33,044 nucleotides of DNA from Spizellomyces punctatus DAOM BR117 (taxonomy: Eukaryota): the NCBI GenBank assembly GCA_000182565.2, contig KQ257458.1; one strand, 5' to 3'. The translations under genes were made by a program, and so were the position numbers. Position 1 is the stretch's first letter; every line of letters starts with the position of its first letter. The notes below the pieces were generated by a model that was not told where the DNA came from, did no database searches, and saw only the letters and a program-made list of their open reading frames with translations. This document shows, in pieces, positions 6,490 through 32,364 of the stretch.

Positions 6490-9400
6490 CTACCATGACG
6501 CAACTGGATAGTCGTTGTCAGCTTCAAGGCTGTCTTTGTTGATCGTCCAGATTATGGTAGCGTGCCCCATGACGTTCGCGCAGAACCAAATTTGGTCAGT
6601 GGCTTCCGGAGCCGGGGTTCCAGGTGTCCTGGAACTGTTGGGTCAGGTTACATAGAGGGCTGTGAACGTCTCTGCGGCCCTTTTCAAGTTAACCACTCGA
6701 AAGTGGTAATAGGCGTGCTCCCGATGCTTGGGACAGAGCTGCTCTTCTGTGGTTTCAGCTGCATTGGCTAGCTTTAACAACACTGCTCTCGCGGCTTCGA
6801 TGGCTATGTCCGCGAAATCGTGGGCCTCGTGATCAGGCCAGAGGGTGAAGCGGGCCATTTTGGGGTTTCCGGCCGCATGTTGAGGGACCCCAGCATCAAG
6901 CCAGGCAGCGCAGGGTATGTCCCGTAATCTCTTGCCTATCTTTTTTGCATCGGCGACAATACCGACAGCAGCTTGACCGCCGTTGGAAGCCCTACTGTAG
7001 GGCTCCGTGATATGCATCATGAGGGGCTGGCTCATGGCGTAAGGCTTCGAAGCCCCGTCAACCACCCAATCTTCACCACAATAGTGTTCAAGGGTTTTGT
7101 TTGGGTCTTCATACAACTCACGAATCCAAACTTCGACCCAGGTGGCCATGGCTGCTCCGAGCCGCTCGATAGAGTTCTCGGCAGCGAAGGCGTCGCTTAC
7201 TTCTGACCAGGGATAGCCTTCCTCAAGGGTAGAGAGGATGCTGACTCCTTGTTGTCCTCGGATATCAGTGGTCATGGTGTTGGAAATGAAAGCTTTTGTT
7301 TCGGTGTCGATAGAAAGGGTTTGCGAAGCAGAGTGAGTGTGTAAGGGAAGTAGTTCGTTGGTAGTTGAAGAAGAAAAATGAGGGGGGGCGAGCAGGGGCG
7401 CCCTTTTAAGGTCGTCGCCGGCTGATTTTGACAGCTCGGACGCGCGTAAGCGTGATCGGGAGGCTTGGTGTGGCGTTCTCGACTGGTGAGGTAAGCCACG
7501 CGAAACTGGTTTTCTTTCTGGTGAGAGGGCATGATTATCATGTGAGCTATCGTCCGGATAAACTGCGAAGCATTGGTGGTCGGAAGCGTAAGCCATATCT
7601 TCCGGGGCGTCGCCTGCAAGGCTGACTACTGAAGAGTCATCTACTAGTGTGCTAGTGGGGGCTCTGGATCTCCAGTACTCTTCTAAGGCTTCGGAAGCCT
7701 CTGTTAGGGCTTCCTCTGGTTCCCAGGTATCCTCATGGGGTGGGTATCCGGACCAACGTATTCGAAATTGACATTTTCCGCGCCTGGTTCGATGGTCTAC
7801 TATTGCTTCCACTTCAAACTCGCCCTCTGAAGCGTTGGAATCCTCCGCTTGTGCTTCCGCGACCTTTTCCTCAGTTTTGGCGTCGACAGGCTTCTGGTAC
7901 GGATGTAATTTCGATATGTGAAACCATGGATGAAGTCGTCTCATCTTGTCTGGCAGTTTTAACTCGTAGTTGTCACGGAGAGGGTTACAGTCGGTCACCG
8001 TGACTGGTCCCAGCCATTTCGGAGTGATCTTGGACTCATACCCTGCTAGGTTTTTTGTGCTCAGAAGCACCTTATCTCCTCTCTGGAACTCCAAATGTCG
8101 TCGCGATAAATCATAATATCTTTTCTGCGAATCCTGGGCTTTGATCATCAGATCTTGGATAAGGATGTTTAGGTCGCCGAGGTGTTTACAGAGCTCTTCC
8201 GCATCTGCATTTCTGGTTTCTGACGGCCTTTCGACGATATCCGCCAGTGGATTGTGGGGCTCATAGCCTAGGTCCATTCTGAATCGCGTCATTTTTGTCG
8301 CCTCATGTACCATATTGTTGATAATGAATTCCGCAACCAGAAGAAAGGTGTCCCAGTCGTCTAATCGGGTGTTGACCATTGTGGTAAGGACCTGCAAGAC
8401 CGTTGCGTTGTCTCTCTCTGATTGTCCATCACCTTGAGGGTGGTAGGCTGTGGTGAGCTCTTGATTAATCTTTAGGTTTTTGCAGACCTCCTGCCAAAAT
8501 CGACTCGTAAACTTGGGGTCGTGGTCCGAGATAATAGTCTCCGGAATGCCGTGCAATGGGACGTAGCATTCTATAAAGAGTTCCGCGACCTGAATAGCTG
8601 TCGCAGTGCTCTTGAGGGGCCATACGTGGATCCTCTTTGAGCATTTACATGCTATTAGCCAAAAGGCGTCGTACCCTCTGGAAGTAAGTGGGAGCTTGGT
8701 TACGAAGTCAGTCGTGATGACTGTCCAGCATCCTGGAGCTGGTGGTATGGGTTTCAGCAACCCCGGAATCAGTTGCGGTACCCTTTTTGAGCGTTGACAG
8801 ATTTCACATCCTGCGCAGTGTTTTCTGAAATCTTGTGCCATCTTTGGCCACCAGACTTGCGCTGCGGCTCTGGCATAGGTTCTTTCGAATCCGAAGTGTC
8901 CTCCCCCCTCGTGAAAAAGCTTGCGCACCTTGGGGGTGCAAGCAGGGGGCACGTAGAGGCGCCAAAGGTCTTTGGAGACTGAAAAACGGTGCCACAGCAG
9001 GTTATCTGCACGTTGCCAGTCCTGAAGAAAGCGTGTGTCGGCTGTAGTGTAGGTGTCGGGGCTGGTCTCCCATAGGAGCGTGCGGGCCTGTTGGGCTATG
9101 GGGTGGAGCTGGCCGGTGAGGCCAGTGCAGATGGCGGCAATGAGTGCAGGCTGTAATGCCAGACGGAAGGCGGCATCTGCCAGTGTCAAGGAAGGTGCGA
9201 GAGCCGCTGGTGTGGTGCGCAGCCGTCATCTTCCGCGTTCCGCCACCCATATTTGGGTCGCGCTGGAGCAGAGGAGGGTTTCTGCTCCTAGTAGCCGTGA
9301 AAGTGTATCAGCGACAATGTGAAAACGTCCTGGTTTGTGAACGATTGTCATCCATTCAGACCAGTAACTAAGATCGAGGGCCCAGCGGAGAAGCTTACGG

Positions 9401-11827
9401 TTCTCACCTTTGTATTTAGCGAGCCACAAAAGAGCTCGGTGATCGGTAATGACCATGAAAGGCAGGCCTTCGAGGTATGGGCGGAGTTTTCTGAGGCCCC
9501 AAATGAGGCATCCGGCCTCGAGTTCGACAGGGGGGGCCTTCTTTTCCGAGGTGGTGGTGCCTCAGGAATGGTAGCACAGCGGGCGTTTAGAAGCATCCGG
9601 CTGTAACTGTTCGAGCATGACATTAAACACTGTGTAGGAAGCATCACTGTGAAGGGTGTAGGGGAACCCTTTTCTGGGTGCCGCAAGCACTGGAGCTGTT
9701 GTCAGAGCCTGCTTGGCGGCTGTGAAGGCAGAGTTTCGGGAATCGGTCCATGAAACTTCATGCTTCGCGATAAATCTGCACAGACCTTGGTCGGGGCACT
9801 TGCGAGCAAGGCGTCTGACACAAAAGGGGTCAATGGGCAAGTCCACCAACGATGATTGGCATAGATTGACCGCCGGTAGGTCTGAGGAGCTAGATTTCGG
9901 ATGTTGCGAAACCTCAAATCGGACTCCAGTGGCTGTGATTGTAGGGGCCACCGCCGTGTCGAGCATGGATGGTGAATTGAGCTTTTCAGCGCCTTTCTTT
10001 GGGTCAGCACGACCCTTTTTAAGGTCTCGGTATTCGCGAATGCCCTCTTGGATAGCGTCTTGCAGGGGTCGGATGAGTTCCGCGTAGCGGGGGATGAATT
10101 GGGCATAGAACCCTAGGAGACCCACGAAGGACCATAGGTCACCTATGAATTTGGGTCGTGGCCAATCGACTATGGTTGCGACCTTGTCTGGATCAGTAGC
10201 GAGACCCTGAGAGGAGGCAACGAAACCGAGAGCCATGAGCTGGTGAAAGAGCCATTGACACTTGTCGAGTCTTAGGGTGAGTTTGGCTCTGGAAAAGCAG
10301 TCGAGCCAGTCCGCGATGGCGTCTAGGGCTTCCGCGGCTGTCTCCACTCGTGTGTGGATATCGTCGACGAAGTTGTTGATATTTCACCATTTGGAGGGAC
10401 CCAAGGTGTCGTCCATCACCCGACAGAAGTGCGAAGGGGCAGTCTTGGGTCCGAAGGGCATAAAGAGTGGTTCGTAGATGCCGTCATGGAGTCTGATCGC
10501 GAGCCATTTGCGTACCGACGCATCGGTGATGGCGATTTGGTAAAATCCTTTGTTTGCGTCACCTCCCGATATGTATCGGAATGGGACTGTGATGATCCAG
10601 TTCAGGATGTCGAGCATGATGGGAAAGGGATATGGGTCCCAGGCCATGCAGTCATTGGCTCGGCGATAGTCGAAGGCTACCCGCAGGGGTTTGTCTGTGT
10701 AGCGAATGATAACAGGATCGCTGGCAAAGGTTACTTCGGTGGTTCGTTTCCACCTCTGAAGCCCCATCATGGTGTCTCGCTCCGTCTCAAGGGCTGTCCG
10801 CTCCAACGGAGAGTACGACCGTGGCCTCGAAAGGGGTGGCGGAGCCAAGATAAATCGAGGCACATAAGGAATCTTGGTGTAGTTCCCTATGAGATGACCC
10901 TCATAGCTGAAGGCTTGATGGAAGTGTCATAGAATGTTGATTAGGGCCCAGACCACGGGTTTGGGTCGCTTGAGATCGATGTGGAAACGTTCTGTGTCTT
11001 TTAATTGGGCTTCGAAGGCCCCTGGAGCCCTCTCCGTAGAGTCGAGGTTCCATTTGTTCTGAAGTGTCTGCCATTCTTCTTTGGAAATGTTCTCTTCGGG
11101 GTCCGCAACCGAATTATGGGTCGCGGTGGACAGTTTGAGGCCTAACGGGGCCGTTGAGCTAGCAGCGGTGGCCTCAAGAGGGTTTTCGATGAGAAAAGTT
11201 TGGGCTGCCACGCGCATCTGTCCCGTGATTAACATGGTTAATCTAGACTTCTGAGCTTTGGCTTTGGTCAGCCGTGGCATTGACACATCCTTCATGAATT
11301 CACCCTGCTTGGTCTTGTATGGCATGCCGCGCATGTGATCGGTGTCCAGCTCATCCGTTATGGAGCAAGGGATAAGGATGTCCGGATTCTTGAGCATCAC
11401 CGCGAAACTGGGTAACGGGGGTTCCTGAACCAAGGTTTGGAGTTTCAAATGTCCCAGAACATCGTTGGCTAGGATGATGAGAGGTTTCCCGTATGCAATG
11501 ACTCGGAAATAGGCACGGAAAGTCAGGTATTCTCCTCTGCGGCCTCTGAGGGAAGTTTCGAGGCATACTGTCTTGGTAGATGAGATACGTCCACCAATGC
11601 CTTTGAAAGCCATCGTTTCTGCATCCTGCAAATTGGTTTCGGAGAACAGAAGGCCCTGGTACGTGTCGGAAACCAGAGACTCGCAGGCTCCTGTGTCTAG
11701 TACCACAGGTGCCCAGAGCTGAGCGATGACGGCTAGCGTCCAGCAAGGCTGTGTTTGGGTCTTGGTCTGGCTTTTGAGTACATTGCCTAAATCTACCGAC
11801 TAGAAGGCGTTGATGGAAGGCACCGCA
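6490..11827 (-). pseudogene. pol: Gypsy pol polyprotein (protease, RT, RNase H, integrase, chromodomain, long C-terminal extension); one frame with 5 internal TGA and 1 TAG
   Basis: Motifs: LDTGA (PR); MPFGPKTAP and FVDD (RT); SDAS, ELE, TDH, ADTLSR (RH); H..GH..C..C, TDFV, SD(H)D, ERDN (IN); chromodomain at 7672-7818. The ORF-track pieces 10927-11706, 10384-10863, 9562-10347, 9226-9456 and 6643-9189 share one frame, which stays open to a TAG at 6490-6492. Confidence 0.92.
11822..11827 (+). repeat. 6-bp target site duplication ACCGCA (left copy)
   Basis: Identical hexamer flanks the right TIR at 32682-32687. Confidence 0.93.
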
Positions 11828-12172
11828 ACTACAAAGTGAGGCACTTTGAGACAATTTCATCAAAAATATTCCCAGGAAGAAAGTGCCACAGGATAAAACC
11901 AATGGTAAAAATTGGAAGCTTATGGAAAGTAAAAAATTATGTAGAGACATGTAGGGATGAGAAATGTCCCCATTTTCCTAGCAAGATTGCAAAAAGAATA
12001 GAAATATCCACATGTTTAAATGGCAACATTGGTTTCCTTGTTTACACAAAAATCCACAGAAGATGTAGGCAACTCAGGCGTCAGAACTCATCCCATCTCA
12101 ACATTACCTTCGAGGCATACCATGCTCTGGAAACATTCTCTTCCCTACATCCCTGACGGCATCTTCCGCCGC
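11828..12172 (+). repeat. Left terminal inverted repeat (345 bp)
   Basis: Reverse complement of 32337-32681. One mismatch seen (12080 vs 32429, in a CpG). Confidence 0.95.
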
Positions 12173-12428: not shown

Positions 12429-12466
12429 TTTTATTATAATGAGTGGAAGATTATTCAGCGTGCGTT

Positions 12467-12862: not shown

Positions 12863-12863
12863 T

Positions 12864-13172: not shown

Positions 13173-13221
13173 TCTTATCTTGCATAGCTTCTTTTTTAAA
13201 TGATGGCAGTGCGCGCGTCAT

Positions 13222-16200
13222 CTATTGTCCGAGTTCAGTGATTTTAATGAGGGAAACATCAGTTGTGTTATCGGGAGCAGCCTGACTGATACTAAAATTT
13301 GTGAAGTAAGCAACGTTATCGGCCATCCCTGTAACAATGAATGATGCTGTGATTGTATGATTGACCCCGGAATTAAAGTTAAAGTCGCTCGAGTACACGA
13401 GAGGCATCGACCCAGCGCTTTGGCCGAGAAATATTGACAATGTACCATTTGAGTTTGCTGTGCCATGGAGGTTGACCGTCCACTCCATAAGTACTTTACC
13501 TGGTGTTGAAACATAGAAGACCTTCGAGGCATTGTTGGATTGCCACACGTCTTTAGTCAAAAGTTTGAACACTTGAACATTTCTTAGAAATGTTTGACTG
13601 GAAACCCATGGTTGAGTAGCACAAACCTGACCATTGCTATAGACAGCACCGTTCGAATACAGATTCTCTCCTGCAACAACATGTGCACCAATAGCAACAC
13701 CTCCATTCACCACCAACGCACCTGTTGTACTCGATAAAGCCGGAGTGGTACTTTCAATGATGACATTTCCTGTCGACGATGCAATAGTAATACCCTTCGC
13801 TCCCTGCGCTTGCAATCGCACCGCACCTGCATTGTTCCTGATTGTGAAGGTGTTCACGCCTCCATCCACAGTCCTATTGTTCCCATTCAAAAACATAACA
13901 GCACTCCCTGCGGCATTCTGGAAGTATTGGATTGCGCAACTATTGCTTCCAGGATCAAGGTTTTTAAGAATAATAGCCCGTAACCTGTTAAGTGGCGAAC
14001 CAATAGTTAGATTACCGGACGAGATGAGGTCTCCGGTGTAGGTGTTAACTGAGAATCGGCTATTCCATGTTCCAAAGGTATCACTGGAATAATGACCGAA
14101 TTCATAACGACGTTGGTCTATGCTATCAGACGAGCCGGCGAGGTGAACATGAAGGGCGTCTCCGGAATTGTTATAGCCGATAGTATAATCACCTTTCGTT
14201 GCAGGAGTATCACTTCTCAACTTGAAATATCCACCTGTAGAGGCGGCTATGAGAACTTTTCCTGTAATGTTTCCACCTGAGAAGATACTTTTAGAAACCC
14301 CTATTCCTCCTTTTACCTGTAGAGCCCCACTTGATACGGTTGTTGCCTCGGATGTATCATTAGCAAGAATTGTATTTACCGACAGATTGCTGGTAGGTGT
14401 GAGTAAATCTTGTTTCGATGTTTGCAGTGCTGATATGCTGGGGGCATAGTCAACAATGTTTAAAATACTTCGCACAGCGACGTCATTTGTGAGAGTGAAT
14501 CCTTGGACATCATCTCCCATGAGAAACATATTGCTCATTGGTGACATCGCAGCGAGAGTAGAGAGTAAGGGTGATGCATTTTGCTTCACTGAGAGATCGA
14601 CATTTGTAATGCCTAATAATGTCTTCACCTCTTCAGGAGTTTTCACCGCGAATGTCGTTGCAGAACTCCCTAAAATGAAAGAATTTGCAGATAGTGTGAC
14701 TCCACTAATGGAATCTAGGAGCAGACTCGATGTCTGTTTTGAAGCAATGGCTGCCCCTACATAACTCTCGGTTGCAACTTTCAGATTATTGGAGTACAGA
14801 CTCCCTCCACAGTAGAGATTCTTCGATATTCCAACACCTCCCTTTACTTGGAACGCACCTGTGATTGATGATGAAGCATCTGTGCTTGTATTTACAATGA
14901 CATTCCCAGATGAGAGAATATCTAGTTGAGATGAACTATTTGTTACACCGAATCTCAGGTTCGTATTCCACGCCCTCAGGCAGACGTCGTTAATCTGATC
15001 GTTGAAGAAGGCTTGGCCATTCGAAGATGGGGAGAAGAATGTCATGTCACCAGTATTGACATTTCCACCTATGCTACCCCATCCAAAACCATACCCTGTT
15101 CCTTTCCCACTTGTTACCTTATTACCAACCCACAGAGTCTTCGATATTCCTACACCTCCTAATACCTGTAAAGCCCCTGTTGTTGCAGACGAGGAGTCTG
15201 TAGCAGTCAACACCTTAACTTCGTTTGAAATAGAAACAATCCGCAGACCTAATCCTAGACCAGATTTCCCTTGGATGTTCATGTCTCCACAATCGTTATG
15301 AAGAGTAGCGTTATTTGACGAGCCATCAGCAGTCCTTGTAGAAGAGTTGAGAAAAAGTAAGGCTGCATTTCCGCTATCATTGGAACAACCAATAGCAGTG
15401 TATGCGTTTACGCCAGATGAAATGTTTCTAGATTGCACCCAGTTTGGAGCATCCACAGAGGTGCTACCAATTACATTTCCTCCAGCATACAAGTCCTTGG
15501 CAACACCTAAACCACCACTTACTAGAAGTGCTCCTGTAGTCGAACTAGTCGATTGTGAGGTATTTGTTATCTGTGTAATACCGGTATTAGAAATCTTGAA
15601 CACATAGCCAATGTTGTTATATGAAGAGTTGATTCCGAACCTGCCTGCTGGGTTAGAGCCATCGGCGGTTGAACCTGCAACTCGAATACCCCAAGTCACG
15701 TTTGATGAAGTATTTACCAGTGACATAAAGGTGGGATTGGCGCCATTTTGAACACTCAAATAACCATTTGCAGTAACAGAAGCAAGACTCAGATTTGTTG
15801 ATGTTGTGATACTGGGTTGTTTCCCAGAAAGAAGTGTGTTCACGCTAGCATTTGTAGCAATATCGAGGATGCCTTTCACTTGACTGGAAGTAACATTCTC
15901 GAATGTAGTCCCAGCAGAAGAATAAAGCCAACTGTCTGGCTGCACCATCATCGTGTACAGGCTATTAGTTGTAGCGTTCATAGGCTGCTTCGAGGCGAGT
16001 GCAGAAGTGAGGGAATTGTTGTTATTAGTTACCGTCGTTGTCAATGAAGACAAGGATTGACTTATTGGAGCAGTGTTATCAATTACAAATTTTTGAGAAG
16101 CAACTTCGAGACCTCCGATGTAAGCCATTCCACCGATATACGCATCAGTTGATACTCCTAGGCCTCCACTCACGACCGTATTACCTGATGGGTCAATTCA

Positions 16201-19200
16201 GAATATGTATCCTTTATCTTGGTATGACGAGTAAAAGCCTAATGCTCCAGAAATTAGGTTTCCATTCGATGAACCAGCCACATGGATATTCCATGTCTGT
16301 GCAGCGCTAGAATTTCCTAGTGTGATTGCCGTAGCATTGGTGTTTGAATTCTGTACCGTTAGACCGCTAAGGTTAAGGACACTCGCTGGTGTAATCAACG
16401 GCTGATATGCGCTGAGGATTTCATCTTTAGGTACAATCCGGAAAAAACCACCATTTCCACCCATCAAAAAAGTGCCATCAGTCGGGGTCAGACTACTGAT
16501 ATTGTCGAGCAAAGGAGATAAGTTTTGCTTCGATGCTAATCCAGTCATAACGAATGTTTCCGTTGCTACTTTCATATTGGTGGAGGCATAGATATTACCA
16601 CCAATGAATATGTCCTTTGCAATACCGACACCACCAGGACAAACTAGGGCACCCGTTGTTGAAGATGTTGATACTGTTGTGCTATCCAGTGTAACAATTC
16701 CAGTGTTTGCCTGTATTGTTAGTCCTCTAGCGGTCTGTGCTTGGAGCCGAAGATTTCCAATATCGTTTCTCAATGTCATTGTGTTTTGCCCTCCATCGAC
16801 ACTCCGGTTGTTTCCGTTCAAAAACATCACTCCAGACCCTCCTGAGGCCGTAAGACAAAGAATACTACATGCGTTTCCTCCTGTATTAGTATTGCTCAAA
16901 ACGAGATAACGTAAACTGTTTACAGAAGAGGCTCCAACTGTTAGGTCGCCCCCTACAGCACATGAACCATTTGTGTCCACTCTTAGACCTAGAGTAGGCG
17001 TGCTAGATGTCCTAGGATATATGAACATGGGTAAATCCTGAGCACCGAGCCATGTTGAAGCACCGGGGTTGTATCCTAAGAATCCTGTTCCATCGAGCCC
17101 GAACCATGAACTCTTAGTTCCATCGAATGTTGAATATGTCGTGACCGATGAAGTGCCTGTCATAGATGGAGAAATATTCAATCTGGTTCCACTGATTACT
17201 TTACCACCGATATTACCACTGAATGTCACATTATTCGAAGTTAATGCCGTTATCTGGCTTCCAACCCAAGGTTTGATGACTTCGGTATCATAATCCCTTA
17301 GCATAGAGAGGTTAATTGCTTGCTGAGGGTATTCGTATTTGATGCCTCAATAACATGAAGGCGTATCAAACAAGAGACGAGTACAACCTCCTATGGGATC
17401 AGAAGCAATTGTGACATTGCTCCCGGGTTCAAGTGGTGGCATGAAGGTAACAGGGTCTATTGGTTCATAAACGGGGTTTCCATCGCCATCGAGTATAGGT
17501 TGGCCTTCCGCATCTCGTTGAACCTTACGTTTGCATGACCCTCCGAAAATCATTCCCCAAGGGAACGTTGAGACGATTGGGAGGATGGAGTTTACAGCCA
17601 TAGGGACTGTCAAGGGTGGGGAGACCATCGCTGGAAAAGGTACGGTTGATAATGGAGTTGCTCCGGACAAAATAACAGTGTTGCCTGATGGAACATCCAT
17701 TTTTAACACTTCTGCGGTATCACTCTGTTCAGTATTATCGGTATCCCTTTGCTTTGATAATGGCATAGGGTCAATGAGGGTAAAGTTATAAAGTGGATAC
17801 GAACCTGTAATGATGAGATTTGGACTGTTACTTACGAATTGAGGAGGAATCATGTTATACTGAATCATATTTCCAACAACAATAATACTTCCATATGAGT
17901 TGGTACTGCCCACATAATTACCTCTTAAGGTATCGCCTACGCGAAGAATAGTATCGCTTCCTGAAATCGAACATGAAATCAAATCACCGCTAACTTGCAC
18001 TCCATTGATACCTCTTAGGTTTGTTGACAAAATCGCACCATTTTTTTGCAGTCCAATTCCCGCAGCGATGTTTGAACTCAGAACACCATTGTTTAGAGTA
18101 AGATCGGGTGACTGTGCTGTTAAACTCAGTCTGAAGTCGTTCCCCGTCCTGGTTACCCCTTGGGAGGCTGTGAAGGTATCCCGTATGGTTCCCCTGTTGA
18201 CCATAGCCAAACCTGAATTAGCATCAACTTTTAGATCGAGTTGAAGGTCATTCTGTACTCTCTCAATACCATTGCTGCAAGTCAGTACATCTTTAATGGT
18301 ATCTGCTTTGACCATTTGGAGACAACTGCCAGCCTCGCATTTAAGAGATAATACCACATCATTGGTCGTTCCAGGTCGAATAGATACGCCATTAAAGTCC
18401 TGAAAAATGTACCCACCTGTGAGTGCATTTCCAACAATTCTGATGGTCTGATTATCGACCAAACAGCCTATCTCTCGACGTCCGTTAAACTCGGGTCCCA
18501 CTGCAAGCACTCCTGTTTGAGAGCCTTGATAAAATTGGGAAAGATAGTCTTTACTCACTGCATATGAGCCACCTCCAATAGCAGGAAATACTCCAGTTAA
18601 TTTGACATTTGGTACACACAACTCCTGAAGCGTGGACGAATAAGTGAATGAAGAACTTCCCGAGTAGCCATAAGTAAGGTTCCCATACAGGATTTGTTCA
18701 TAGCCAGGTGATCGTAATGAAAGTTTCGATCCCGCTTGACTGAATGTAGAAGAATCGACCATTAAGCGAATTGCTGTGGTGTCTACTTCTCCTAACACAT
18801 CAGTCATTTCGGTCAAACTATTGAATCCAAAGTCGAGCCATGAAGACCCGATGTCTAACAGCATATCCGCACCTGAACTCGATTTCAGAGCGCCAAATGC
18901 TTTTAGTACCGACTGAATGTTAGTTTCCAATTCGTCATTATTGTTCACCTTTAGACTTTTATGAAGTTTGATTCCAAGGCCGCTCTGGTCACGATACAAC
19001 GGCTTTTTCAGCATCTCAGGATCAGGAAAATTAACCGATAGACCGTTTTCAGTTATAAGCAAAGTATCATCTGCTTGTAAACCAACCGTATGTGATTCGG
19101 CATCCCTGTAGAGTGGAAAATCATAGTTATAAGGTATGACTGTTAATTTTCCACCCCCAACTTTTAGTTCATCATCATCAATGTTTAGGCTTACTGTTCG

Positions 19201-19554
19201 TGAGTTGGGAGCCCTATAGAGAGGTTGCAGGAGTGTCTCTGGTTTAACAGATAAGCCGTCTTCTGTTATAAGCAGAGTATCGTCTGTTACAAGCCTGACA
19301 TCATGTTCATCATTAATTAATGGAAAAACATAAGTTGTCTCGGCAAGAGAGATGGTATATTTACCTTTATTTTTCTGAATGGAGAGACTGGGCGTTTGAC
19401 TATCCAAATCGAGTATAGTGACTATACCATCTTTATTTCGTAGGCTCTCTCCATAGATAGAATTGGCTTTAACTTTTCCGGACTTGAAATTATCTAGGAC
19501 TTCTAAATTTCTTCGAACCGTATATGTGCCTTGAATGCTATTAGGCAAAGGCAT
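13222..19554 (-). pseudogene. Giant fibre/spike-like virion protein (~2110 aa) broken by two in-frame TGA (17347-17349, 16198-16200)
   Basis: The 735, 368 and 983 aa ORFs share one frame, separated only by single TGA codons. Contains beta-spiral-like repeats (PLYR..L.L..D.L.I..GLSV), six TGALxVxGGxG repeats and three FLN..R..DG..N..TLRN modules. Rich in S/T/G/N. Confidence 0.8.
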
Positions 19555-20464: not shown

Positions 20465-20504
20465 TTTAGCTTTGTAAATAGAAAATAAAAAAACCCAAAT
20501 ATGC

Positions 20505-21482
20505 TTAGCGAGGTTCTTTTGTCCATGATGATGGTACCTTATAAGAATTACTCGCCCACTCTTTCTTAAGTTCCTTGTGTACCTTACCATTTTTTCTAAT
20601 CCAATTACCGGTTCTTGGATTGTAAACTTCCTGCAAGGATGAATCTCTCGGGTTTCTTCTCTCATGAAGCCTTGGCGATGGCTGCATTGTTGTGAAGTCA
20701 AATGCAGTTGATGATGGAGATGGTGATGCATCCATCGGCGTTAGTGATGGTAAGCCTGAGGTTGGTGATTCAGATCGCCTATGTAGAACTAATTGTGTAG
20801 GTGGCATGCCTCCTTCCTCATAAAAGATGTTCTCAGACAAAGCAGGAGTAGGTCGTATCACGCCACGTTGCATGTTGTATTCATCTCTTGAGGCAGAAAT
20901 GTCTGTGCCCCGCGTTCCTAAGCCAGTTGTTTCTAGCAAACTCTCCCCAGGATTGTGAATACCATGTGAAGAGTGGAAATGCTGTATGTCAGCCAATTCC
21001 TTACGTTTTTCCTCTTTTATAAACTCTTCATAACCTTCGTGCATTCGTCGGATGCATGCAATCAAATCTATGTCATTTTTGTATCCATCGCGACCATGGA
21101 TTATCGGATACCGAGTCTCTTGATTAGATTTGGGATGGTAATCAACTGAACGCCCAGAAGCCATCCGTTTGAGTTCTGCATCTGAAACAACTGGCCGAAA
21201 GGTATCAGGATCCAAAGACCGGCCGTTAGCATCCCTTAGTTCACCGAAGCATCTATTATCAATTTCGATATAGTATGGGTCACTGACAAATTGTGTATCT
21301 ACCTTACCAAATGAATGATACTTGTTTAACAATGGGTGCTTGAAATAGCCTGTAGGTAACTTTGAATCAACCCATTTTCTCTTCTCTCTCCAAAACACAT
21401 CACGTTCGACCTGCTCAGAGTTGTAATCAGTTACATCAGTGTTGCCCTTCTGTAATAGTTTTACCAATTCGGCAACAGACAT
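20505..21482 (-). CDS. Hypothetical viral protein (325 aa) with C-terminal NPxTG (2-cysteine-adaptor-like) motif
   Basis: Long intact ORF ending in EVYNPRTGNWIRKNGKVHKEL. Confidence 0.7.
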   Translation of the reverse strand: MSVAELVKLLQKGNTDVTDYNSEQVERDVFWREKRKWVDSKLPTGYFKHPLLNKYHSFGKVDTQFVSDPYYIEIDNRCFGELRDANGRSLDPDTFRPVVSDAELKRMASGRSVDYHPKSNQETRYPIIHGRDGYKNDIDLIACIRRMHEGYEEFIKEEKRKELADIQHFHSSHGIHNPGESLLETTGLGTRGTDISASRDEYNMQRGVIRPTPALSENIFYEEGGMPPTQLVLHRRSESPTSGLPSLTPMDASPSPSSTAFDFTTMQPSPRLHERRNPRDSSLQEVYNPRTGNWIRKNGKVHKELKKEWASNSYKVPSSWTKEPR

Positions 21483-21804: not shown

Positions 21805-22122
21805 TTAATACCCCGCTAATTCGACAGGAAGCGATTTCCTTAGCGCTGAATCAAAATTCTGTTGGATCTCATAGGATTGCCCTAGACCTTTATGGAGATC
21901 ATCGATATAACCTCATCCTCGTGAAATTGTCTCTCTTACTTTGATGGGTACAGATTCGTCATGGACTAGAGATTGATGAACCTTTCCATAAATATCTCTG
22001 GCTTGGCCGGCATGGTTTACAAATTGTCAAATTCCATTGTTTACTTTGCTGTAACTGTTCAACGCCCGAAGACCAAAGTTCTTTGCACTTGAGAGAAAGT
22101 TTGCAAATTTTTGACGCAACAT
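21805..22122 (-). pseudogene. Hidden 105-aa amphipathic-helix protein (adenovirus protein VI / Polinton PX-like candidate) with two in-frame TGA
   Basis: Manual translation: MLRQKFANFLSSAKNFGLRALNSYSKVNNGI*QFVNHAGQARDIYGKVHQSLVHDESVPIKVRETISRG*GYIDDLHKGLGQSYEIQQNFDSALRKSLPVELAGY. It fills the gap directly after mCP. Confidence 0.6.
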
Positions 22123-22893: not shown

Positions 22894-22940
22894 TTCTTCT
22901 AATGTATTATAGATACAGAGAGCAAATAAAAACAAGTGCA

Positions 22941-23612
22941 ATGAAGCCAATCACAATAGCCCCTTTACCTAGTCAAGTCTCTGGATGCATAAAGGATAAT
23001 ACAGATCCACGGCTTCCTAGAAAGTATGGTTTTATCATATACAATGGCGCTCGATTTAGCGGTAAAACGCTAAACATTGCTGTGATATGCAAATTGTTCT
23101 TGAAGAAGCAGTATTCGAATATCATAATATTCACACCAAATCCGCATGACACCAATTGGAACCCCTTAAGAACGAGCAAAAAGGTTCATATATTTGACAA
23201 GATTTCCAATGAAATACTCAATTTTATACACGAAGAGCAACTTTATGAATTTGTTCGAAGTGGAAGAAAACGAGACCTGCTTCTAATCATAGATGACTAC
23301 AACATGCAAAAGGGACATAAGAAGTCACTCGATGAGTTGGCAACTTGTGGAAGGCATGCTGGTATCACTTGCATCCTGTCGAGTCAATATTTTTATCACA
23401 ATAGTCCCGCTGTACGTAGCAATGCAACAAACTGGATCATTTTTAGACCTTTGAAAAGCGAACTTAAGAAAATGGTCGAAGCAGGCTTATCTCTCGCTTT
23501 ACCTGAAGATGTATTTGAAAAGTTCGTTATGGATAATACAAAGAAACTGTTTCATTTTGTGCACATAAATCTACAAAGTTCGAAACGACCATTTAGAGTT
23601 GGTTTTTCATAA
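22941..23612 (+). CDS. A32/FtsK-like DNA packaging ATPase (223 aa; alternative start at 22902)
   Basis: Walker A GARFSGKT, Walker B LLIIDD, and the GRH..I..ILSSQ and VRSN motifs. Confidence 0.92.
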   Translation: MKPITIAPLPSQVSGCIKDNTDPRLPRKYGFIIYNGARFSGKTLNIAVICKLFLKKQYSNIIIFTPNPHDTNWNPLRTSKKVHIFDKISNEILNFIHEEQLYEFVRSGRKRDLLLIIDDYNMQKGHKKSLDELATCGRHAGITCILSSQYFYHNSPAVRSNATNWIIFRPLKSELKKMVEAGLSLALPEDVFEKFVMDNTKKLFHFVHINLQSSKRPFRVGFS

Positions 23613-23646: not shown

Positions 23647-25050
23647 ATGTCATCCGATATTGAAGTAACAGAGGTCAGACGTGTCCCATCGGCATTTACT
23701 TATAAAAGATCCGCAAAAAATGGAGTCATTCTAAACTTCCAGCCATCTAGTCAGGTTCGCTTCGAGCCAACAAACGGAAGTGGAGATTGCCGACCAGGCG
23801 GGAAACTAGTTTTTAAAATAGCAGACGACAAGCGCTTCTGGCTCGTTAATGAAACGCTGCACAAATATCGTGTAGTCGGCTTAAAAGCAGATGGTTTGCC
23901 AGCAGTAGCAGTTAATGCTGACTACAGGCTCTGTCAATCTGGAACTGATGCTGTATGGAAACGTCAATCTCTCCTGATTAATGGAAGGATCATTGAAGAT
24001 CTCAATGACTATAATTTGTTCACTGTGCATGAAAATGCCTTAACATCATGGGAAACCAAACAACATCTAGGCCAATGCGAGTATTATTCAAGTGAGGATA
24101 ACAACCGTTCAGCAGTGGTCGCTCAAAACAACGCATACACCGTTACCGGGTCATTGCTATCATTCTTTCAAAATGAAGTGGCTTTTCCTCTCTGTCTTGT
24201 GAAAGGAGGAGTAAGCCTGGAGATGACCGCCGAGACAGACCTTTCCAAAATATTCCCAAAATCCACAGGGATTACGTCCTTCAAAGTAGAACAAAACAAA
24301 TTAATATGTCAGTTTGCTGAACCGGTCAAGGCTTACTATGATAAAGTGCTTGCTTTGATGCAGGCTGAGGATCCTACACCCCTGACTATCCCCACTCAAA
24401 TAGTATGGAGTCAAGAATTTGCAGGACAAGATAGTTGAGTACAACAACTCTCGCTTGTAACAGGTGAGCAGTCCTCTGTTTCGTCATTGATGTTGGTGAC
24501 AACTGACAATGTTCTAACAGATGTAGACAAACTGAATTATTCGGACGATGCAGGTATTAGAACAGTGTCTATGCAAGTAGGAATGGAACGGTTCCCACAA
24601 GGGAAGGCTATTGGACATGGCTCTGAGAAAACAGGATTTGTCTCTACTATTGACCCTGAGATGTATGCATTGAGTCAACGTAACAAGGATTTCAATGATG
24701 TGAAGTTTGCGCCCACTATGTCTGATTTGAAAGGATGGGATCTAGGAGGCAAAAAGATAAAACATTGGTCATGGAGACAAAATTTCAAGCAAACCCCAGA
24801 CATGATTGGCAGCGGTCTTCAGACTCTAGCCGATGGACGAATTTTAATCAATGTTTCTCAATATCCAAATCCTCCAGAAACAGCCGATTTCCCAAGCGAA
24901 ACTATAACTACAGGAACCGGAGATTCACAAACGACATCGCCTAACCCCGCTTACATTCCTACATTCAAGAACAAGATGTTTCATGTATTTTGGACTACTG
25001 ATCATGTGATGAGCATCGACAAAGATGGTATTAGATTGGTTCCGGCATAG
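23647..25050 (+). pseudogene. Major capsid protein (double jelly-roll, PLV-like), ~467 aa with one in-frame TGA at 24436-24438
   Basis: The 263 and 187 aa ORFs share one frame. Motifs F.P.NG..PG..L.F.I, L.INGRIIEDL.DYN, FPL....GG..LE, V...RFP and GSGL. Lies just downstream of the ATPase. Confidence 0.8.
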
Positions 25051-26191: not shown

Positions 26192-26448
26192 TTCTCTTCA
26201 ATTACCGTTGACACACGCTAAAAAATCCATGAAATCAACAAAAAAATTACAAAACAACAAAACCAGAAAAAAAATACAAAACGACAAAAACAGTCTGTAA
26301 AGGTGTTTCGTAGCACAATGTACATAGATATCCCTTTGTTTAGCGTCATGTAGGGGCGTTGTTATAGAGCTTTTGTACAACGTTTGCTAATAAACACACA
26401 CGTTTAAACAAAGAGAAATAATATTTTGTATACACAATATATTTTAAC

Positions 26449-26760: not shown

Positions 26761-27062
26761 ACATCCCTGCCGGGATTGGCCGCTCCGCGCCCGGCATCAT
26801 TTGAAGAACAAATACGTTTAAAGCTTTGAAAATATTTATTTTTTAACACTATATATTTCTATTTACTATGCCTTTGATTTTTAACCCAATCACCAACAGA
26901 CACGTAAAAGAAGACTCGAAGCCTTTTGAGAGGATGATGCGAAAGATTGTATCTGGAAACTTCTCTAGTGAAAACTGGACTAAGAAACAACTAGATGCAC
27001 TAGAGAACCTTCAAATACATCGAGTACCAAGATTCCTACAATCTGAGCGAGAAAAAAGAATT

Positions 27063-27382
27063 GCTGCTGCGAGACGCACTGAGGCTCAAAAGCAGGCTAT
27101 TGCTGAAAAGGCCAGAGAGACGAGAAGGCTTAATAAAGAAGCAGAAGAGCGCGAGATGAGAGAAATTCAAGAGAGGGCTCAGGCTGCTATTAAAAAGCGA
27201 AAGGAAGCCACTAAGAAGGCTGCTGCGAGACGCACTGAGGCTCAAAAGCAGGCTATTGCTGAAAAGGCCAGAGAGACGAGAAGGCTTAATAAAGAAGCAA
27301 AAGAGCGTCAGATGAGAGAAATTCAAGAGAGGGCTGAGGCTGCTATTAAAAAGCGAAAGGAAGCCGCTAAGAAGGCTGCTGC
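27063..27382 (+). repeat. 156-bp (52-aa) tandem duplication in the pPolB N-terminus
   Basis: Near-identical units start at 27063 and 27219. Confidence 0.95.
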
Positions 27383-29682
27383 CACTAGGGCTAAACGTAA
27401 GTATAATCTTCGAAAGCATCAAGAATCATTCTCACCTTTAATATCTGTCAAAGAGATCAAAATCAAAGGTATCGGTTATACAAAGGAACTTTATCGGTTC
27501 AATCCAAAGTACACCTTCGCTACTCATGATGATATTGTTTCATTTTTCAATGATGTCATCAAGGAATCACTTGTAGGCCTTGAACGCGGTGACAAAGTGC
27601 AAATAGGGTTTCAACATCAAAGTCTACACAATGGATTTTGGTCATCAAAAGTTGTATCAGTTAGTGATCTGATTGCTTCTGATGTGATAGACGATATTAC
27701 TGCGAGAATGCAATCGGCTGAAATAGCATCAATCGATGAAAGCATGACTATCGAGGTGCGTCGTTTAGTTTCGGTAAAGGGCGGCGCCTTCAAAAACTAT
27801 CATGACCATCTATCAGCACAGTCAAAAAGATGTGTCATTGTTGTGAAAAACAATGGTAACGATTGTGGTATGAGAGCAGTTGCCTTATCCGTAGCATTCC
27901 ATACAATGGATCACTCAACAAATGAATATGCGTACATCATGAAACAAAGAAAGCCACTGGACAAAATTGTTACTAACTATTATGAAGGATGCGGGTTACC
28001 TGTTGGTCAGAAGATGTCTTACGGCGATTTTCCAAAGTTGGTTTCATTCCTCAAAAGGAACATCATTATTGTTGATCTAGAGAACGGTGGTAAACCTCTC
28101 ATGGTCAAAGGTGTTAACAATGAGTGATACGATGAGAAACCTGCTACTATCCTACGTAAAGGGGATCATTTCGATTGCATAACCAAGATTAACGCCTTTT
28201 ACTGTGCATTGTATTTTTGTTTCCAATGCATGAAAGGACACAAGCATACCAATCATAAATGTGATAAGAAACGAGGATGCAACCTTTGTGGTTGGGTCAC
28301 ATGTAAACAAGGATCTCCCGATGATCTAGTGTTGTGTTTAAGTTGTAACTTAGGTCACTTTTCAGGAGATTGTGATGATTATCACAAGGAGAAAAAATGT
28401 GATAAAATATGGAAATGTAACAAGGAAGGCGGCTGCGGGCGTGTATTTGAGCGTGCTTATTATGATGGTAATTGTGCTGAGTTACACGATTGCAACCACC
28501 ATCTCTGCCGTCCTTGCAAGGCTTATGTCACTCCTGACCATCGATGCTTCATACAGAAAAAGAAACCCAGAAAGCACATTAGCAAGATCATAGCATTTGA
28601 TTTTGAATCAGAGTTTCTACATGATGGTGAACATCGTGTAAAGTTTACGGATTGCAAGGTAGTTTGTACCGGTCTATGCCAATCTGTGTGCCAATGTCAT
28701 GAGCATCACTCCTTCTTTGAATTTGACGCTTTTTATCAATTCATCTTCAAGAACCCTAATACAACATTCATTGCTCACAATGGTAAGGGTTACGATTTCC
28801 ACTTTCTCTTCAAAAAGTTCAATGACAACGGTGTTAAGCCTAAGTATATCTCAAATGGGTTGAAGATCATTTCAATGGTGCTGCCCAAGTTCAACATCCG
28901 GTTCATTGATAGCATGTTGTTTTTGCCTATGGGACTGTCAAAGTTGCCTTCCATGTTTGGATTAGAGGAACATGTTCGTAAGGGTTACTTTCCACATTGG
29001 TTCAAATGTTCAAATGATTATAAAGGCGTTTTACCATCTTTGGATGATTTCCGATTTGACAGTATGCCCTATGATAAACGCGCTGATGCACAACGCTGGT
29101 ACAAGAAAACCCTACGCAAATGCATGAAGGGTAGGTATGTTTTTGATTACACTAAGGAACTTGTTGAATACTGCAAGAATGATGTCGATATTCTAGCAGC
29201 GGCCGTGAAATTGTTCCGAGAGCAATTCCTTGTAGCAACCGATGGTGAAATTGATCCTTGGGCTTATAAAACCATAGCATCGGCATGTATGGGGACTTAC
29301 AGGCATATGTTCATGCCTGAAGAAAGCATACCCACACATCATGAAGAAGGAATGCGGCGTCATTCAGACAAGGCTGTCCAGTGGCTCGAATATCTACGCG
29401 ATAATGGCATTCTGGATATGCGACGTGTTCTACGTGGTGGAGAGAAATGGATTGACCGATTAAATGGGAAAAAATTCTATGCCGATGGCTATTCTCCTTC
29501 GACAAATACTGTGTATGAATTTAATGGTTGTGAATTCCATGGGTGTAAACAATGCAAAGACGATGATGCCGTTAATTATCATGGTGTCCCTTATAAGTCT
29601 TTGAGACGATATACCGATAATAAGCATGAAGAATTGATTGCTCTAGGTTACAATTATGTCTCGATCTCAGAGTGTGAATATG

Positions 29683-29782
29683 NNNNNNNNNNNNNNNNNN
29701 NNNNNNNNNNNNNNNNNNNNNNNNNNNNNNNNNNNNNNNNNNNNNNNNNNNNNNNNNNNNNNNNNNNNNNNNNNNNNNNNNN
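29683..29782. other. Assembly gap (100 N)
   Basis: Run of Ns inside pPolB. Confidence 0.99.
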
Positions 29783-31263
29783 AAACAAGAAGATATGTGA
29801 TTATGTTATGAGTAAAGACCTCGACATTGAATATATCCGACCTCTAGATCCTCGTAACGCATTTTTTGGTGGTAGAACAAATGCCAGCAAACTTTACTAC
29901 AAATGTTCTGAGAAGGAAAGAGTGAAATACTGCGATTTTACATCACAGTATCCTTGGGTAAATGCTTTTGGAGAGTACCCATGCTACTCGTTCCCCACAA
30001 GGATTCTTAACAACTTTGATGGCCAACTGAACTACAATGGTTTCATCAAGTGTCGAATAGTACCCCCTCGTGGGTTATATCACCCTGTACTTCCTGATAA
30101 GATTAACAACAAGACCATGTTTGTTCTTTGTAAGAATTGTGCTGAAAAAGGTATCTCTGTTTGTCGCCACTCTGTTGAACAGAGGGCTTTTGTTGGGACT
30201 TGGTGCATTCCAGAAGTGAAGTTAGTGCTTTCAAAGGGCTATGTCATTTCTCAAGTTTATGAGGTTCTTCATTTCGAAAATACGGGATCTGATCTTTTCA
30301 AAGATTACATCTTCACATTTCTCAAAATCAAGCAGGAAGCATCAGGGTACCCTAAATGGTGTAAAAATGATGACGACAGAAAAAAGTATATTGACGACTA
30401 CAAAAGCAAGCAAGGTATTCGTCTTGATCCAGCCAAAATTGTCTACAATGAAGGATTACGTCTCGTGGCTAAGTTGATGCTCAATTCATTGTGGGGTAAA
30501 TTCGGTCAAAAGAACAACATGCGTAAGCATATCACGATCAATGCTGAGGAAAATCCTGATGAATACTACTCCATCATGTTCAATGCTAAATATATCGTAC
30601 ATGACATAGTTGATTATGATAATGGTCGCACTTTGGATCTGTCATACTCCTTGCATAAGGCTGCTGTTCGTGATGACAAGAATACTAGTATTTTCATTGC
30701 TGCATACACTACCGCTTTGGCTCATTGTAAACTTTACAGTGTTCTGGATACTGTAGGGGAAAAGGTGTTGTACTATGATACTGATTCTATTATATATGTT
30801 GATGATGATATAGGATCAACTGAAAAGACTTTGCCCTATGGTAATTATCTTGGAGACCTGACAGATGAATTGAAAGGCGACCATATTGTAGAATTTGTTT
30901 CAGGTGGCGCTAAGAATTACTCTTACATTCTCAACAAAACAGGGAGAGCAAAGACGGTCTGTAAAGGCTTCACACTTTCATATGAAAATGGACTCAATCT
31001 TGGACATGAGTCTATGAAGGATATAGTATTTAACCCTAGGTACATTGATGATGAAGGGATTGAGAAAGAGAGTTGTGTTAATTTTAACTTTAGCGAAATC
31101 AACATTAGTAAAACACACAGTGTGCGTAACAAGACAAAGATCATCATACCAGAAAAAAATAACTTACCCAGCAAAAAGTACAAGTTTGTCTACAACAAAC
31201 GTGTGGTTCAAGAATTTAACTCTGAGTCTAAGGTCATAGAGACACTTCCTTTCGGTTTTTAAA

Positions 31264-32364
31264 ATGGGGACAAAAACCGAACTAATCAAGAAAGTTTACT
31301 ATGATCCCAAGACTGGACTTCAGAGCGTAGAAAAGCTCTACCAGAGACTCAAGGATCAGGGTATTTCCAGAAAGGATATAAAGACATTCATCGACAGTCA
31401 GCATGTGCAACAAGTACACAAACCTCTTGTCAAGCCTAACTACATGCATATAACAGCCAATGGTGTTGATCACATATGGCAATCGGATTTGTGCGACATG
31501 CAGAAATATGCTACCTACAACAACGGTTACCATTATCTGTTATGTATTGTAGACATGTACTCTCGTTATGCCTTTGTTTTTCCTCTCAAGAATAAAACCA
31601 GAGAAAAGATTGCTGATTGTTTTACAAAGTTACTCGCTAGGCGGCGTCCTAAAAATATCACGACTGATAGGGGTTCAGAGTACAACAACATTGTTTTTGA
31701 GCAATTGCTCTATAAGTATGGTATAAACCATTACATGGCTGAAGTTGCTGACCATAACCATATGGGTCTGGTCGAAAGGTTTAATTGTACACTGAAAAGT
31801 GTTATCTCCAGATACATGACCATATTTAAAACTAAGCGCTACATAGATGCTCTTCCTGACCTTGTTATGAACTACAATACTTCATATCACAGTCTATTGA
31901 AAAAGGCACCTGTCAATGTTGCTGATGGTGATTATGTGCGCGATAATAGCAAGGCTGTAAGTGATTTCAAGAAGTTTGACATTGGCGACCATGTAAGAAT
32001 ATTACTCAAATGGGATATTTTCAAAAAAGGATATGAGGCAAAATGGTCTGATGAAGTATACCATATAGTCAATGTCGATGGCTATCGATTCATAGTAGCA
32101 TACGCCAATGGTAAAGAAATAGACCAGTGTTTCAAATACTATGAATTACAGAAAACCAATGCACCGATTACCGAGAAACCAGGTCATCGACCAGTAAAAT
32201 TGACTAGAACACAAAAAGAAGTTCGCAAAGAAATTCGTCAGTTGGAGCCTGTACAAACACGACCTACTAAAACCAGATTGCAACAGAAAAAGTTAAAAGT
32301 TCATCTGAAGGGTACATTTTCACACATAGAAATTCCGCGGCGGAAGATGCCGTCAGGGATGTAG
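31264..32364 (+). CDS. int: Polinton-type retroviral-like (rve, DDE) integrase, 366 aa, no chromodomain
   Basis: YYDP..G N-terminus; catalytic WQSDL, TTDRGSEY, VERFN; YN..YHS; F.IGD.VRI..F.KGY..KWS. Confidence 0.93.
   Translation: MGTKTELIKKVYYDPKTGLQSVEKLYQRLKDQGISRKDIKTFIDSQHVQQVHKPLVKPNYMHITANGVDHIWQSDLCDMQKYATYNNGYHYLLCIVDMYSRYAFVFPLKNKTREKIADCFTKLLARRRPKNITTDRGSEYNNIVFEQLLYKYGINHYMAEVADHNHMGLVERFNCTLKSVISRYMTIFKTKRYIDALPDLVMNYNTSYHSLLKKAPVNVADGDYVRDNSKAVSDFKKFDIGDHVRILLKWDIFKKGYEAKWSDEVYHIVNVDGYRFIVAYANGKEIDQCFKYYELQKTNAPITEKPGHRPVKLTRTQKEVRKEIRQLEPVQTRPTKTRLQQKKLKVHLKGTFSHIEIPRRKMPSGM

What the first reader, a model, noticed from the sequence alone, without database searches (positions are those of the whole stretch)
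6643..32040. Twelve in-frame TGA stops, no frameshifts: CpG-targeted inactivation of a very recent insertion
Seen: TGA at 6643, 9226, 9562, 10384 and 10927 (Gypsy) and at 16198, 17347, 19985, 21913, 22027, 24436 and 28125 (virus), each with the frame continuing. The preceding base is evenly spread (3 each of A/C/G/T). YHS* sits where RNase H has Y.SR. Conserved Arg codons are also hit: ERFNCTLK, TALAHCKLY, TCGRH, SDHD, DLWSF, and TLHND versus TLRND in sister repeats. The only TIR mismatch is CG>CA. Inference: 5mC deamination or a CpG-directed RIP-like defence acting much faster than background mutation. The ancestral virus can be largely rebuilt by reverting TG/CA to CG.
Basis: partly seen in the sequence, partly recalled or inferred. 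Interest (0 to 1): 0.7.

Follow-up and report, generated by a model that had tools for sequence, protein, structure and literature searches.

The report
CpG-decay stop codons in silenced chytrid virus
A Polinton-like virus that landed inside a Gypsy retrotransposon in the chytrid fungus Spizellomyces punctatus has been knocked out almost only by CGA-to-TGA changes, the ordinary mutational scar of cytosine methylation on silenced mobile DNA.

Summary
All 12 coordinates are TGA on the stated strand. Ten of them interrupt otherwise open long frames. Two lie in an unsupported 105-codon ORF.

The window is Spizellomyces punctatus DAOM BR117. It holds a 20.9-kb Polinton-like element with 345-nt TIRs and a 6-bp duplication, inserted into a Ty3/Gypsy chromovirus.

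- **Homologous residues:** at the five stops that can be tested, homologues carry Arg or Arg/Lys and never Trp.
- **Polarised protein changes:** 25 fit CG>TG/CA and 3 fit the reverse.
- **Reads of other Gypsy copies:** the window has TG/CA where the majority has CG at 26 of the 40 best-supported differences.

A reassigned TGA codon is rejected. Classical RIP at CpA is not supported.

Published nanopore data say 5mC in Spizellomyces is confined to transposons (PMC12695648). The best reading is therefore spontaneous 5mC deamination after silencing. This is a clean but ordinary case. A CpG-directed enzymatic process cannot be excluded from sequence alone.

The parts
810..1990 (+). Host zinc-type alcohol dehydrogenase gene. 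Two exons were traced, 810-1280 and 1463-1990. Used here only as an unmethylated-type control.
   Evidence: Translation. ADH_zinc_N-type clusters. No in-frame TGA in the two exons. CpG obs/exp is 0.99 over 810-2400.
6490..11706 (-). Ty3/Gypsy chromovirus pol ORF (PR-RT-RNase H-integrase-chromodomain, plus about 390 further codons), open except for 5 TGA.
   Evidence: Pfam RVT_1, RT_RNaseH, Integrase_H2C2, rve, Chromo.
6643..6645 (-). In-frame TGA (residue 1688, C-terminal extension).
   Evidence: No homologue covers it.
9226..9228 (-). In-frame TGA (residue 827, variable linker).
   Evidence: 15 of 26 homologues have a gap here.
9562..9564 (-). In-frame TGA in RNase H (residue 715).
   Evidence: Homologues: R 17, K 6, others 3, of 26.
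10384..10386 (-). In-frame TGA in RT, just before the FVDD motif (residue 441).
   Evidence: Homologues: K 10, R 7, others 9, of 26. No W.
10927..10929 (-). In-frame TGA upstream of RT (residue 260).
   Evidence: Variable column, R in 3 of 26.
11822..11827 (.). Left copy of the 6-bp target-site duplication, ACCGCA.
11828..12172 (+). Left terminal inverted repeat, 345 nt.
   Evidence: It has 5 CpG. The one mismatch is at 12080.
13222..19554 (-). Fibre-like repeat protein, 2110 codons, with TGA at 16198 and 17347.
   Evidence: Paralogues in the same species. At residue 736: R 4, C 1, Q 1 of 6. At residue 1119: R 4, Q 1, H 1 of 6.
19613..20731 (-). Low-complexity ORF, 372 codons, with TGA at 19985.
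   Evidence: No family hit. The stop was not testable.
21805..22122 (-). Unsupported 105-codon ORF holding the TGAs at 21913 and 22027.
   Evidence: No homologue search was left.
22902..23612 (+). A32-like packaging ATPase, intact.
   Evidence: Pfam Pox_A32, 27.5 bits against a cut-off of 22.8.
23647..25050 (+). Putative major capsid protein, 467 codons, with TGA at 24436.
   Evidence: Identical to the S. punctatus gene model SPPG_05487, which skips the stop. R in 9 of 9 homologues at the stop. The fold was not confirmed: pLDDT 39.
26868..31262 (+). Protein-primed family-B DNA polymerase with a long N-terminal region. TGA at 28125. 100-N gap at 29683-29782.
   Evidence: Pfam DNA_pol_B_2 on both halves. 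The stop sits in a variable loop: K in the nearest relative, no W or C in 23.
31264..32364 (+). rve-type integrase, intact frame.
   Evidence: Pfam rve, 62.4 bits. The Cys codon in ERFNCTLK is TGT.
32337..32681 (-). Right terminal inverted repeat.
   Evidence: It has 4 CpG.
32682..32687 (.). Right copy of the target-site duplication, ACCGCA.
32688..33044 (-). Continuation of the interrupted Gypsy element, upstream of its protease.
   Evidence: Reads and a contig of other Gypsy copies run from 11826 straight into sequence matching 32688 onward (table 7).

Best explanation
**What is there.** The window comes from the chytrid fungus Spizellomyces punctatus. A Ty3/Gypsy chromovirus copy was already decaying when a 20.9-kb Polinton-like virus integrated into it by its rve integrase. 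That integration left 345-nt TIRs and a 6-bp duplication.

**How it works.** Both elements sit in repeat DNA that this species marks with CpG 5-methylcytosine (published). Methylated cytosines deaminate to thymine far more often than other bases change, so CG becomes TG or CA. The only codon that this route turns into a stop is CGA (Arg), which becomes TGA. This explains why every premature stop is TGA, why none is TAA or TAG, and why the long frames are otherwise intact.

**Cause and effect.** Silencing probably came first, and the stops are its mutational by-product (inferred).

**Shown and not shown.**
- Shown: the stops replace Arg, and the changes are polarised and CpG-specific.
- Taken from a paper: methylation of transposons in this species.
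- Not measured: methylation of this particular locus.
For: **Arg at the stops.**
- MCP-like ORF: R in 9 of 9 homologues.
- Fibre: R in 4 of 6 at both stops. The other copies carry Q, H or C, which are also CpG-decay products of Arg codons.
- Gypsy RNase H: R 17 and K 6 of 26. Gypsy RT: K 10 and R 7 of 26.

**Polarised changes.** I compared the window with the 75% or greater majority of relatives.
- MCP-like ORF: 27 differences, 8 explicable by CG>TG/CA, 0 by the reverse.
- Fibre: 37 differences, 17 forward, 3 reverse.
- Combined, 3 of 28: binomial p = 2.7e-5.

**Reads of the same organism (runs X16, X17, and contigs of X1).**
- One search printed the 40 best-supported of 1,646 differences. All 40 lie in Gypsy 7080-8569.
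- In 31 of the 40 the window has T or A where nearly all reads have C or G. In 26 of those 31 the window is TG or CA and the reads give CG. The expected share is 0.25, p = 1.3e-11.
- Row 8522 shows directly that other copies have CGC (Arg) where the window reads SDHD.

**Rate.** In that stretch 26 CpG were lost and 85 remain, against 14 other changes over about 1,270 bases. That is about 10-fold per base.

**TIRs.** The only mismatch is CG against CA. One of 10 CpG sites has decayed, and there are no non-CpG mismatches. This is compatible with the 9-12% CGA>TGA loss in the virus ORFs: 5-7 stops against about 52 remaining CGA codons.

**CpG obs/exp.** It falls from 0.99 (host ADH gene) to 0.83 (Gypsy) and 0.77 (virus).

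**Paper.** PMC12695648 (passages read) says that in Spizellomyces 5mC is confined to transposons.
Against: - Methylation of this locus was not measured here.
- Only 5 of the 12 stops could be tested against informative homologous columns. Five fall in variable or unique sequence, and two are in an ORF with no support.
- The TGA positions themselves were not among the 40 read rows that one search printed.
- The read analysis covers 1.5 kb of the Gypsy only, and only the best-supported rows, so the 10-fold figure is rough.
- The relatives' Arg codons are known only as protein. CGA rather than AGA at the ancestral stop positions is therefore inferred, not seen.
- The window shares His in TLHND with one paralogue. 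Some changes may therefore predate this insertion.
Confidence: 0.85

Rival explanations
1. An enzyme-driven, CpG-directed hypermutation of repeated DNA (a RIP-like genome defence) made the changes in one or a few bursts, rather than slow spontaneous deamination.
For: - Both elements are multi-copy. Gypsy depth reaches hundreds in X16/X17, and there are at least six fibre paralogues.
- The changes are almost purely C>T-type at CpG.
- The non-CpG background is very low: 0 non-CpG TIR mismatches.
Against: - The 5' base is evenly spread, 3 each.
- There is no CpA-type signal. Non-CpG transitions are balanced, 5 window-derived against 6 reverse among the 40 rows.
- Both strands are hit in an interleaved way, 16 T-type and 10 A-type.
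- GC stays at 41-53%.
- Only about a tenth to a quarter of CpGs are gone.
- A roughly 10-fold excess is what I recall for plain 5mC deamination.
Confidence: 0.07
2. The stops were inherited. This copy was made from an already dead, already CpG-decayed master copy, so some or all of the stops predate this insertion. This differs from the best explanation only in timing.
For: - One paralogue shares the window's His in TLHND.
- One CG>CA change lies in both copies of the Gypsy target-site duplication, so Gypsy decay had begun before the insertion.
- Contigs of other virus copies, 1-5% different, exist (table 8).
Against: - The TIR decay (1 of 10 CpG) is compatible with all virus decay having happened in place.
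- At both fibre stops the other paralogues have R, Q, H or C and none has a stop.
Confidence: 0.2
3. TGA is read as an amino acid (variant nuclear code, readthrough or selenocysteine), so the genes are intact.
For: All 12 internal stops are TGA and none is TAA or TAG.
Against: - Homologues have Arg or Lys and never Trp at the tested stops. Cys occurs only as 1 of 26 and 1 of 6.
- Three small virus ORFs end in TGA.
- The two host ADH exons have no in-frame TGA and encode Trp with TGG.
- Other copies keep Arg codons at a neighbouring decayed site (row 8522).
Confidence: 0.01

Closest known systems
CpG decay of methylated transposons and endogenous viruses by 5mC deamination (textbook for vertebrate and plant repeats; recalled, and stated in general terms in PMC12695648)
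   Same: - CG>TG/CA changes dominate.
- Arg codons turn into stop, Cys, His, Trp and Gln.
- CpG obs/exp is lower in repeats than in the neighbouring gene.
   Different: The host is a chytrid fungus in which 5mC is said to be confined to transposons. The decay is at an early stage, with CpG obs/exp still 0.77-0.83, so frames remain readable.
5mC silencing of endogenised giant-virus DNA in Amoebidium (known to me only from a citing passage in preprint 10.64898/2026.06.19.733378)
   Same: Integrated virus DNA in a unicellular opisthokont relative is put under host cytosine methylation.
   Different: Here the virus is a 21-kb Polinton-like element, not a giant virus. Only the mutational footprint was seen here, not methylation itself.
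Integrated Polinton-like virus of S. punctatus ('S. punctatus group'; Bellas and Sommaruga 2021, PMC7805220, passages read)
   Same: Same species, integrated in a large contig, with TIRs and an rve integrase.
   Different: I could not tell whether it is this locus or a paralogue, because the paper's tables are supplementary and closed. The passages I read do not mention CpG decay or stop codons.
Repeat-induced point mutation (Neurospora type; recalled)
   Same: C>T transitions that inactivate repeated DNA in a fungus.
   Different: RIP prefers CpA and makes DNA AT-rich. Here the changes are at CpG, with no CpA signal and no AT enrichment.

Membership tests
5mC-deamination decay of silenced repeats | Derived changes are predominantly CG>TG or CG>CA. 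| tested here: met
   26 of 31 window-derived transitions in reads. 25 forward against 3 reverse protein-level changes.
5mC-deamination decay of silenced repeats | The locus carries CpG 5-methylcytosine. | not testable with these tools
   Only the published statement for transposons of this genus is available (PMC12695648, passages).
5mC-deamination decay of silenced repeats | Neighbouring expressed genes are spared. | tested here: met
   CpG obs/exp is 0.99 in the ADH gene, against 0.83 and 0.77 in the two elements. This rests on one gene only.
RIP (Neurospora type) | C>T mainly at CpA, with strong AT enrichment. | tested here: not met
   Non-CpG transitions are balanced, 5 against 6. GC is 41-53%.
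RIP (Neurospora type) | A RID-type cytosine methyltransferase homologue is present. | not testable with these tools
   No genome is held for this window.
Variant genetic code with TGA as sense | Homologues carry one consistent residue (Trp, Cys or Gly) at TGA positions. | tested here: not met
   Arg or Lys at the five informative stops.
Variant genetic code with TGA as sense | No gene ends in TGA. | tested here: not met
   Three small virus ORFs end in TGA. These ORFs are themselves unverified.
Polinton/Maverick-like virus | Terminal inverted repeats and a short target-site duplication. | tested here: met
   345-nt TIRs and the 6-bp duplication ACCGCA.
Polinton/Maverick-like virus | Protein-primed PolB, rve integrase and A32-like ATPase. 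| tested here: met
   Pfam hits above cut-off.
Polinton/Maverick-like virus | Double jelly-roll major capsid protein. | tested here: inconclusive
   No Pfam, PHROG or PDB sequence hit. The model's pLDDT was 39, so no fold search was run.
Ty3/Gypsy chromovirus | PR-RT-RNase H-integrase order with a C-terminal chromodomain. | tested here: met
   Pfam domain order.
Ty3/Gypsy chromovirus | Long terminal repeats. | tested here: inconclusive
   No direct-repeat pair in the window. The 5' end runs off the window.

The most novel reading that the evidence does not exclude
Chytrids possess an active, CpG-directed deamination process that hits newly repeated DNA, including freshly integrated viruses. 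This would place a RIP-like genome defence near the base of the fungal tree and tie it to the CpG methylation machinery rather than to the CpA-preferring RID system.
Probability: 0.07. Interest if true: 0.65.

Novelty: new member of a known kind. Interest (0 to 1): 0.3.

Why it matters
- **Clean example.** This is an early-stage case of methylation-linked decay. A dated event (a virus inside a transposon, with TIRs as an internal clock) lets CpG and non-CpG rates be compared in a chytrid, a lineage where 5mC biology has only recently been mapped.
- **Annotation artefact.** The public gene models at this locus skip the stops, so these pseudogenes are listed as proteins.
- **Limit.** It does not change what is known about how methylated DNA mutates.

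Tried and rejected
- **Whole-genome search.** No genome is held for this window.
- **Earlier notes of this scan.** Nothing by place, sequence or words.
- **Related DNA loci.** Scans of viral contigs and metagenome contigs with the MCP-like alignment found none. The codons of relatives therefore could not be read.
- **Gypsy relatives.** Only 22-46% identical. The test of conserved Arg columns was weak: 14 of 24 conserved Arg columns differ, against 146 of 331 other conserved columns. Of those 14, 4 are W, Q, H or stop.
- **pPolB stop.** It falls in a variable loop and is uninformative.
- **Structure of the MCP-like protein.** pLDDT was 39, so no fold search was run. There were no PDB or PHROG hits.
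- **Host identity from the ADH exon.** The Atlas placed it only as eukaryote or fungus-like.
- **RNA.** No RNA holder was listed. In the RNA run X15, 200 of 26.4 million records read lay on the 20-kb stretch. There is no baseline, so I make no claim about expression.
- **ChIP runs X16 and X17.** Their depths differ over the virus, but the antibodies are unknown to me, so I drew nothing from this.
- **Supplementary tables of PMC7805220.** Closed, so the published S. punctatus element could not be matched to this locus.
Full report
**What is in the window**

The putative capsid ORF at 23647-25050 is identical, apart from a skipped stretch, to the NCBI gene model SPPG_05487 of Spizellomyces punctatus DAOM BR117. 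A fibre-like ORF matches SPPG_05485 on the same contig. The window is therefore from this saprotrophic chytrid fungus.

The left end of the window holds a host zinc-type alcohol dehydrogenase gene with short introns.

From 6490 to 11706 on the minus strand runs a Ty3/Gypsy chromovirus pol frame with the order PR, RT, RNase H, integrase, chromodomain.

At 11828-32681 lies a 20,854-bp element. It has:
- 345-nt terminal inverted repeats that match at 344 of 345 positions;
- a 6-bp target-site duplication, ACCGCA;
- a protein-primed PolB, an rve integrase and an A32-like ATPase;
- a 2110-codon fibre-like protein.

Reads and a contig of other Gypsy copies run from 11826 straight into sequence matching 32688 onward (table 7). 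The virus therefore landed inside a Gypsy copy.

An integrated Polinton-like virus in this species is already published (PMC7805220, passages read). Whether it is this locus I could not check, because the paper's tables are supplementary and closed.

**The observation**

All 12 coordinates are TGA on the coding strand. Reading TGA through fuses the split frames into five long ones, with no internal TAA or TAG.

Ten stops are thus firmly in frame. The two at 21913 and 22027 lie in a 105-codon ORF with no support.

The base before the stop is A, C, G and T three times each, read from the contexts.

The pPolB frame crosses a 100-N gap, so continuity cannot be judged there.

Small indel differences to other copies exist. 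They fall in non-coding stretches or small ORFs (table 4).

**Are the stops former Arg codons or a variant code?**

| Stop | Residues in homologues |
|---|---|
| MCP-like ORF, 24436 | R in 9 of 9 |
| Fibre, 17347 | R 4, C 1, Q 1 of 6 paralogues |
| Fibre, 16198 | R 4, Q 1, H 1 of 6 paralogues |
| Gypsy RNase H, 9562 | R 17, K 6 of 26 |
| Gypsy RT, 10384 | K 10, R 7 of 26 |
| 10927, 9226, 6643, 28125 | variable or unique sequence, uninformative |
| 19985, 21913, 22027 | not tested |

At the two fibre stops, sister copies carry other CpG-decay products of the same Arg codon.

No homologue has Trp at any tested stop. Three small virus ORFs end in TGA. The two host ADH exons have no in-frame TGA. 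A sense reading of TGA is rejected.

**Is the damage CpG-specific and polarised?**

I compared the window with the 75% or greater majority of relatives.
- The MCP-like ORF has 27 differences. Eight can be made by a single CG>TG/CA change and none by the reverse.
- The fibre has 37 differences, 17 forward and 3 reverse.
- Combined, 3 of 28: p = 2.7e-5.

Independent reads of the same organism were laid on 6400-26399. The call printed the 40 best-supported of 1,646 differences, and all 40 lie in Gypsy 7080-8569.
- In 31 of the 40 the window has T or A where nearly all reads have C or G.
- In 26 of those 31 the window is TG or CA and the reads restore CG. The expected share is 0.25, p = 1.3e-11. 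One of these, at 7630, is doubtful because the next base also differs.
- Non-CpG transitions are balanced, 5 against 6.
- Only one row shows the window keeping a CG that the majority lacks.
- Row 8522 shows other copies with CGC (Arg) where the window reads SDHD.

The loose end across the empty site differs from the window at 4 of 30 letters. Three of the four are window CA against CG. One of these lies in both copies of the target-site duplication, so it predates the virus insertion.

**Rates and timing**

In the 1,490-bp Gypsy stretch, 26 CpG were lost and 85 remain. There are 14 other changes over about 1,270 bases. That is about 10-fold per base. The figure is rough, because only the best-supported rows were printed.

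In the TIRs, 1 of 10 CpG sites has decayed and no non-CpG base differs.

In the virus ORFs there are 5-7 TGA against about 52 surviving CGA codons. This implies roughly 9-12% loss per coding-strand C. A TIR result of 1 or fewer out of 10 has probability 0.24-0.74 for per-CpG decay between 10% and 25%. All virus decay could therefore have happened in place after a recent insertion.

One shared His with a paralogue leaves room for some inherited changes.

**Mechanism**

[quoted passage not shown] A preprint (10.1101/2025.03.17.643675, passages read) reports H3K9me3 and H3K27me3 on this species' transposons.

CGA is the only codon that a CpG transition turns into a stop. That accounts for TGA-only stops and intact frames. 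Spontaneous deamination of methylated CpG in silenced DNA is therefore the best explanation.

A RIP-like enzymatic process is not required:
- there is no flank preference;
- there is no CpA signal;
- both strands are interleaved, 16 T-type and 10 A-type;
- GC is 41-53%;
- most CpGs are still present.

Sequence alone cannot exclude it.

**Novelty**

My four literature searches listed no paper whose title or abstract start concerns CpG decay or stop codons in these elements (17 papers). I read only passages of four papers.

The process is textbook, and the instance is new and tidy.

Noticed in passing
window 23647-25050 and 13222-19554: The public gene models at this locus (SPPG_05487, SPPG_05485) avoid the in-frame TGAs by skipping or starting after them. 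Decayed virus genes are therefore listed as ordinary proteins.
   Followed up: partly
window 16198 and 17347 (fibre residues 1119 and 736): Paralogous copies in the same species carry Q, H or C at exactly the codons that are TGA here. This shows independent CpG decay of the same Arg codons in different copies.
   Followed up: yes
window 19633-19821, 20224-20311, 20400-20444, 26741-26803: A GC-rich 45-63-nt motif recurs five or more times in the virus. Three copies are tandem inside an ORF, where they encode PGRDPGAEPYPGRHAGHGVA-type repeats. One copy sits just upstream of the polymerase start. Its function is unknown.
   Followed up: no
window 12122 to 19724/20253: Reads (4 in X16, 25 in X17) and one X1 contig join 12122 to 20253 or 19724. 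Other copies of the virus in this organism therefore lack the roughly 8-kb block that holds the fibre gene.
   Followed up: no
window 6490-7364: The Gypsy frame stays open for about 390 codons past the chromodomain. Most other family copies diverge from the window at 7364 (loose ends and the start of a contig), and depth drops there. The tail is a low-copy addition of unknown origin.
   Followed up: partly
window 11826-11827 and 32686-32687: Both copies of the target-site duplication read CA where other Gypsy copies read CG. This CpG change in the Gypsy therefore predates the virus insertion.
   Followed up: yes
window 27063-27374: A 156-nt tandem duplication (5 differences) in the N-terminal region of the polymerase gene encodes a repeated charged, helix-like stretch.
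   Followed up: partly
window 4945-5892: A 315-codon ORF between the host gene and the Gypsy has no Pfam hit. Its nature is unknown.
   Followed up: partly
window 29683-29782: A 100-N assembly gap lies inside the polymerase gene.
   Followed up: yes
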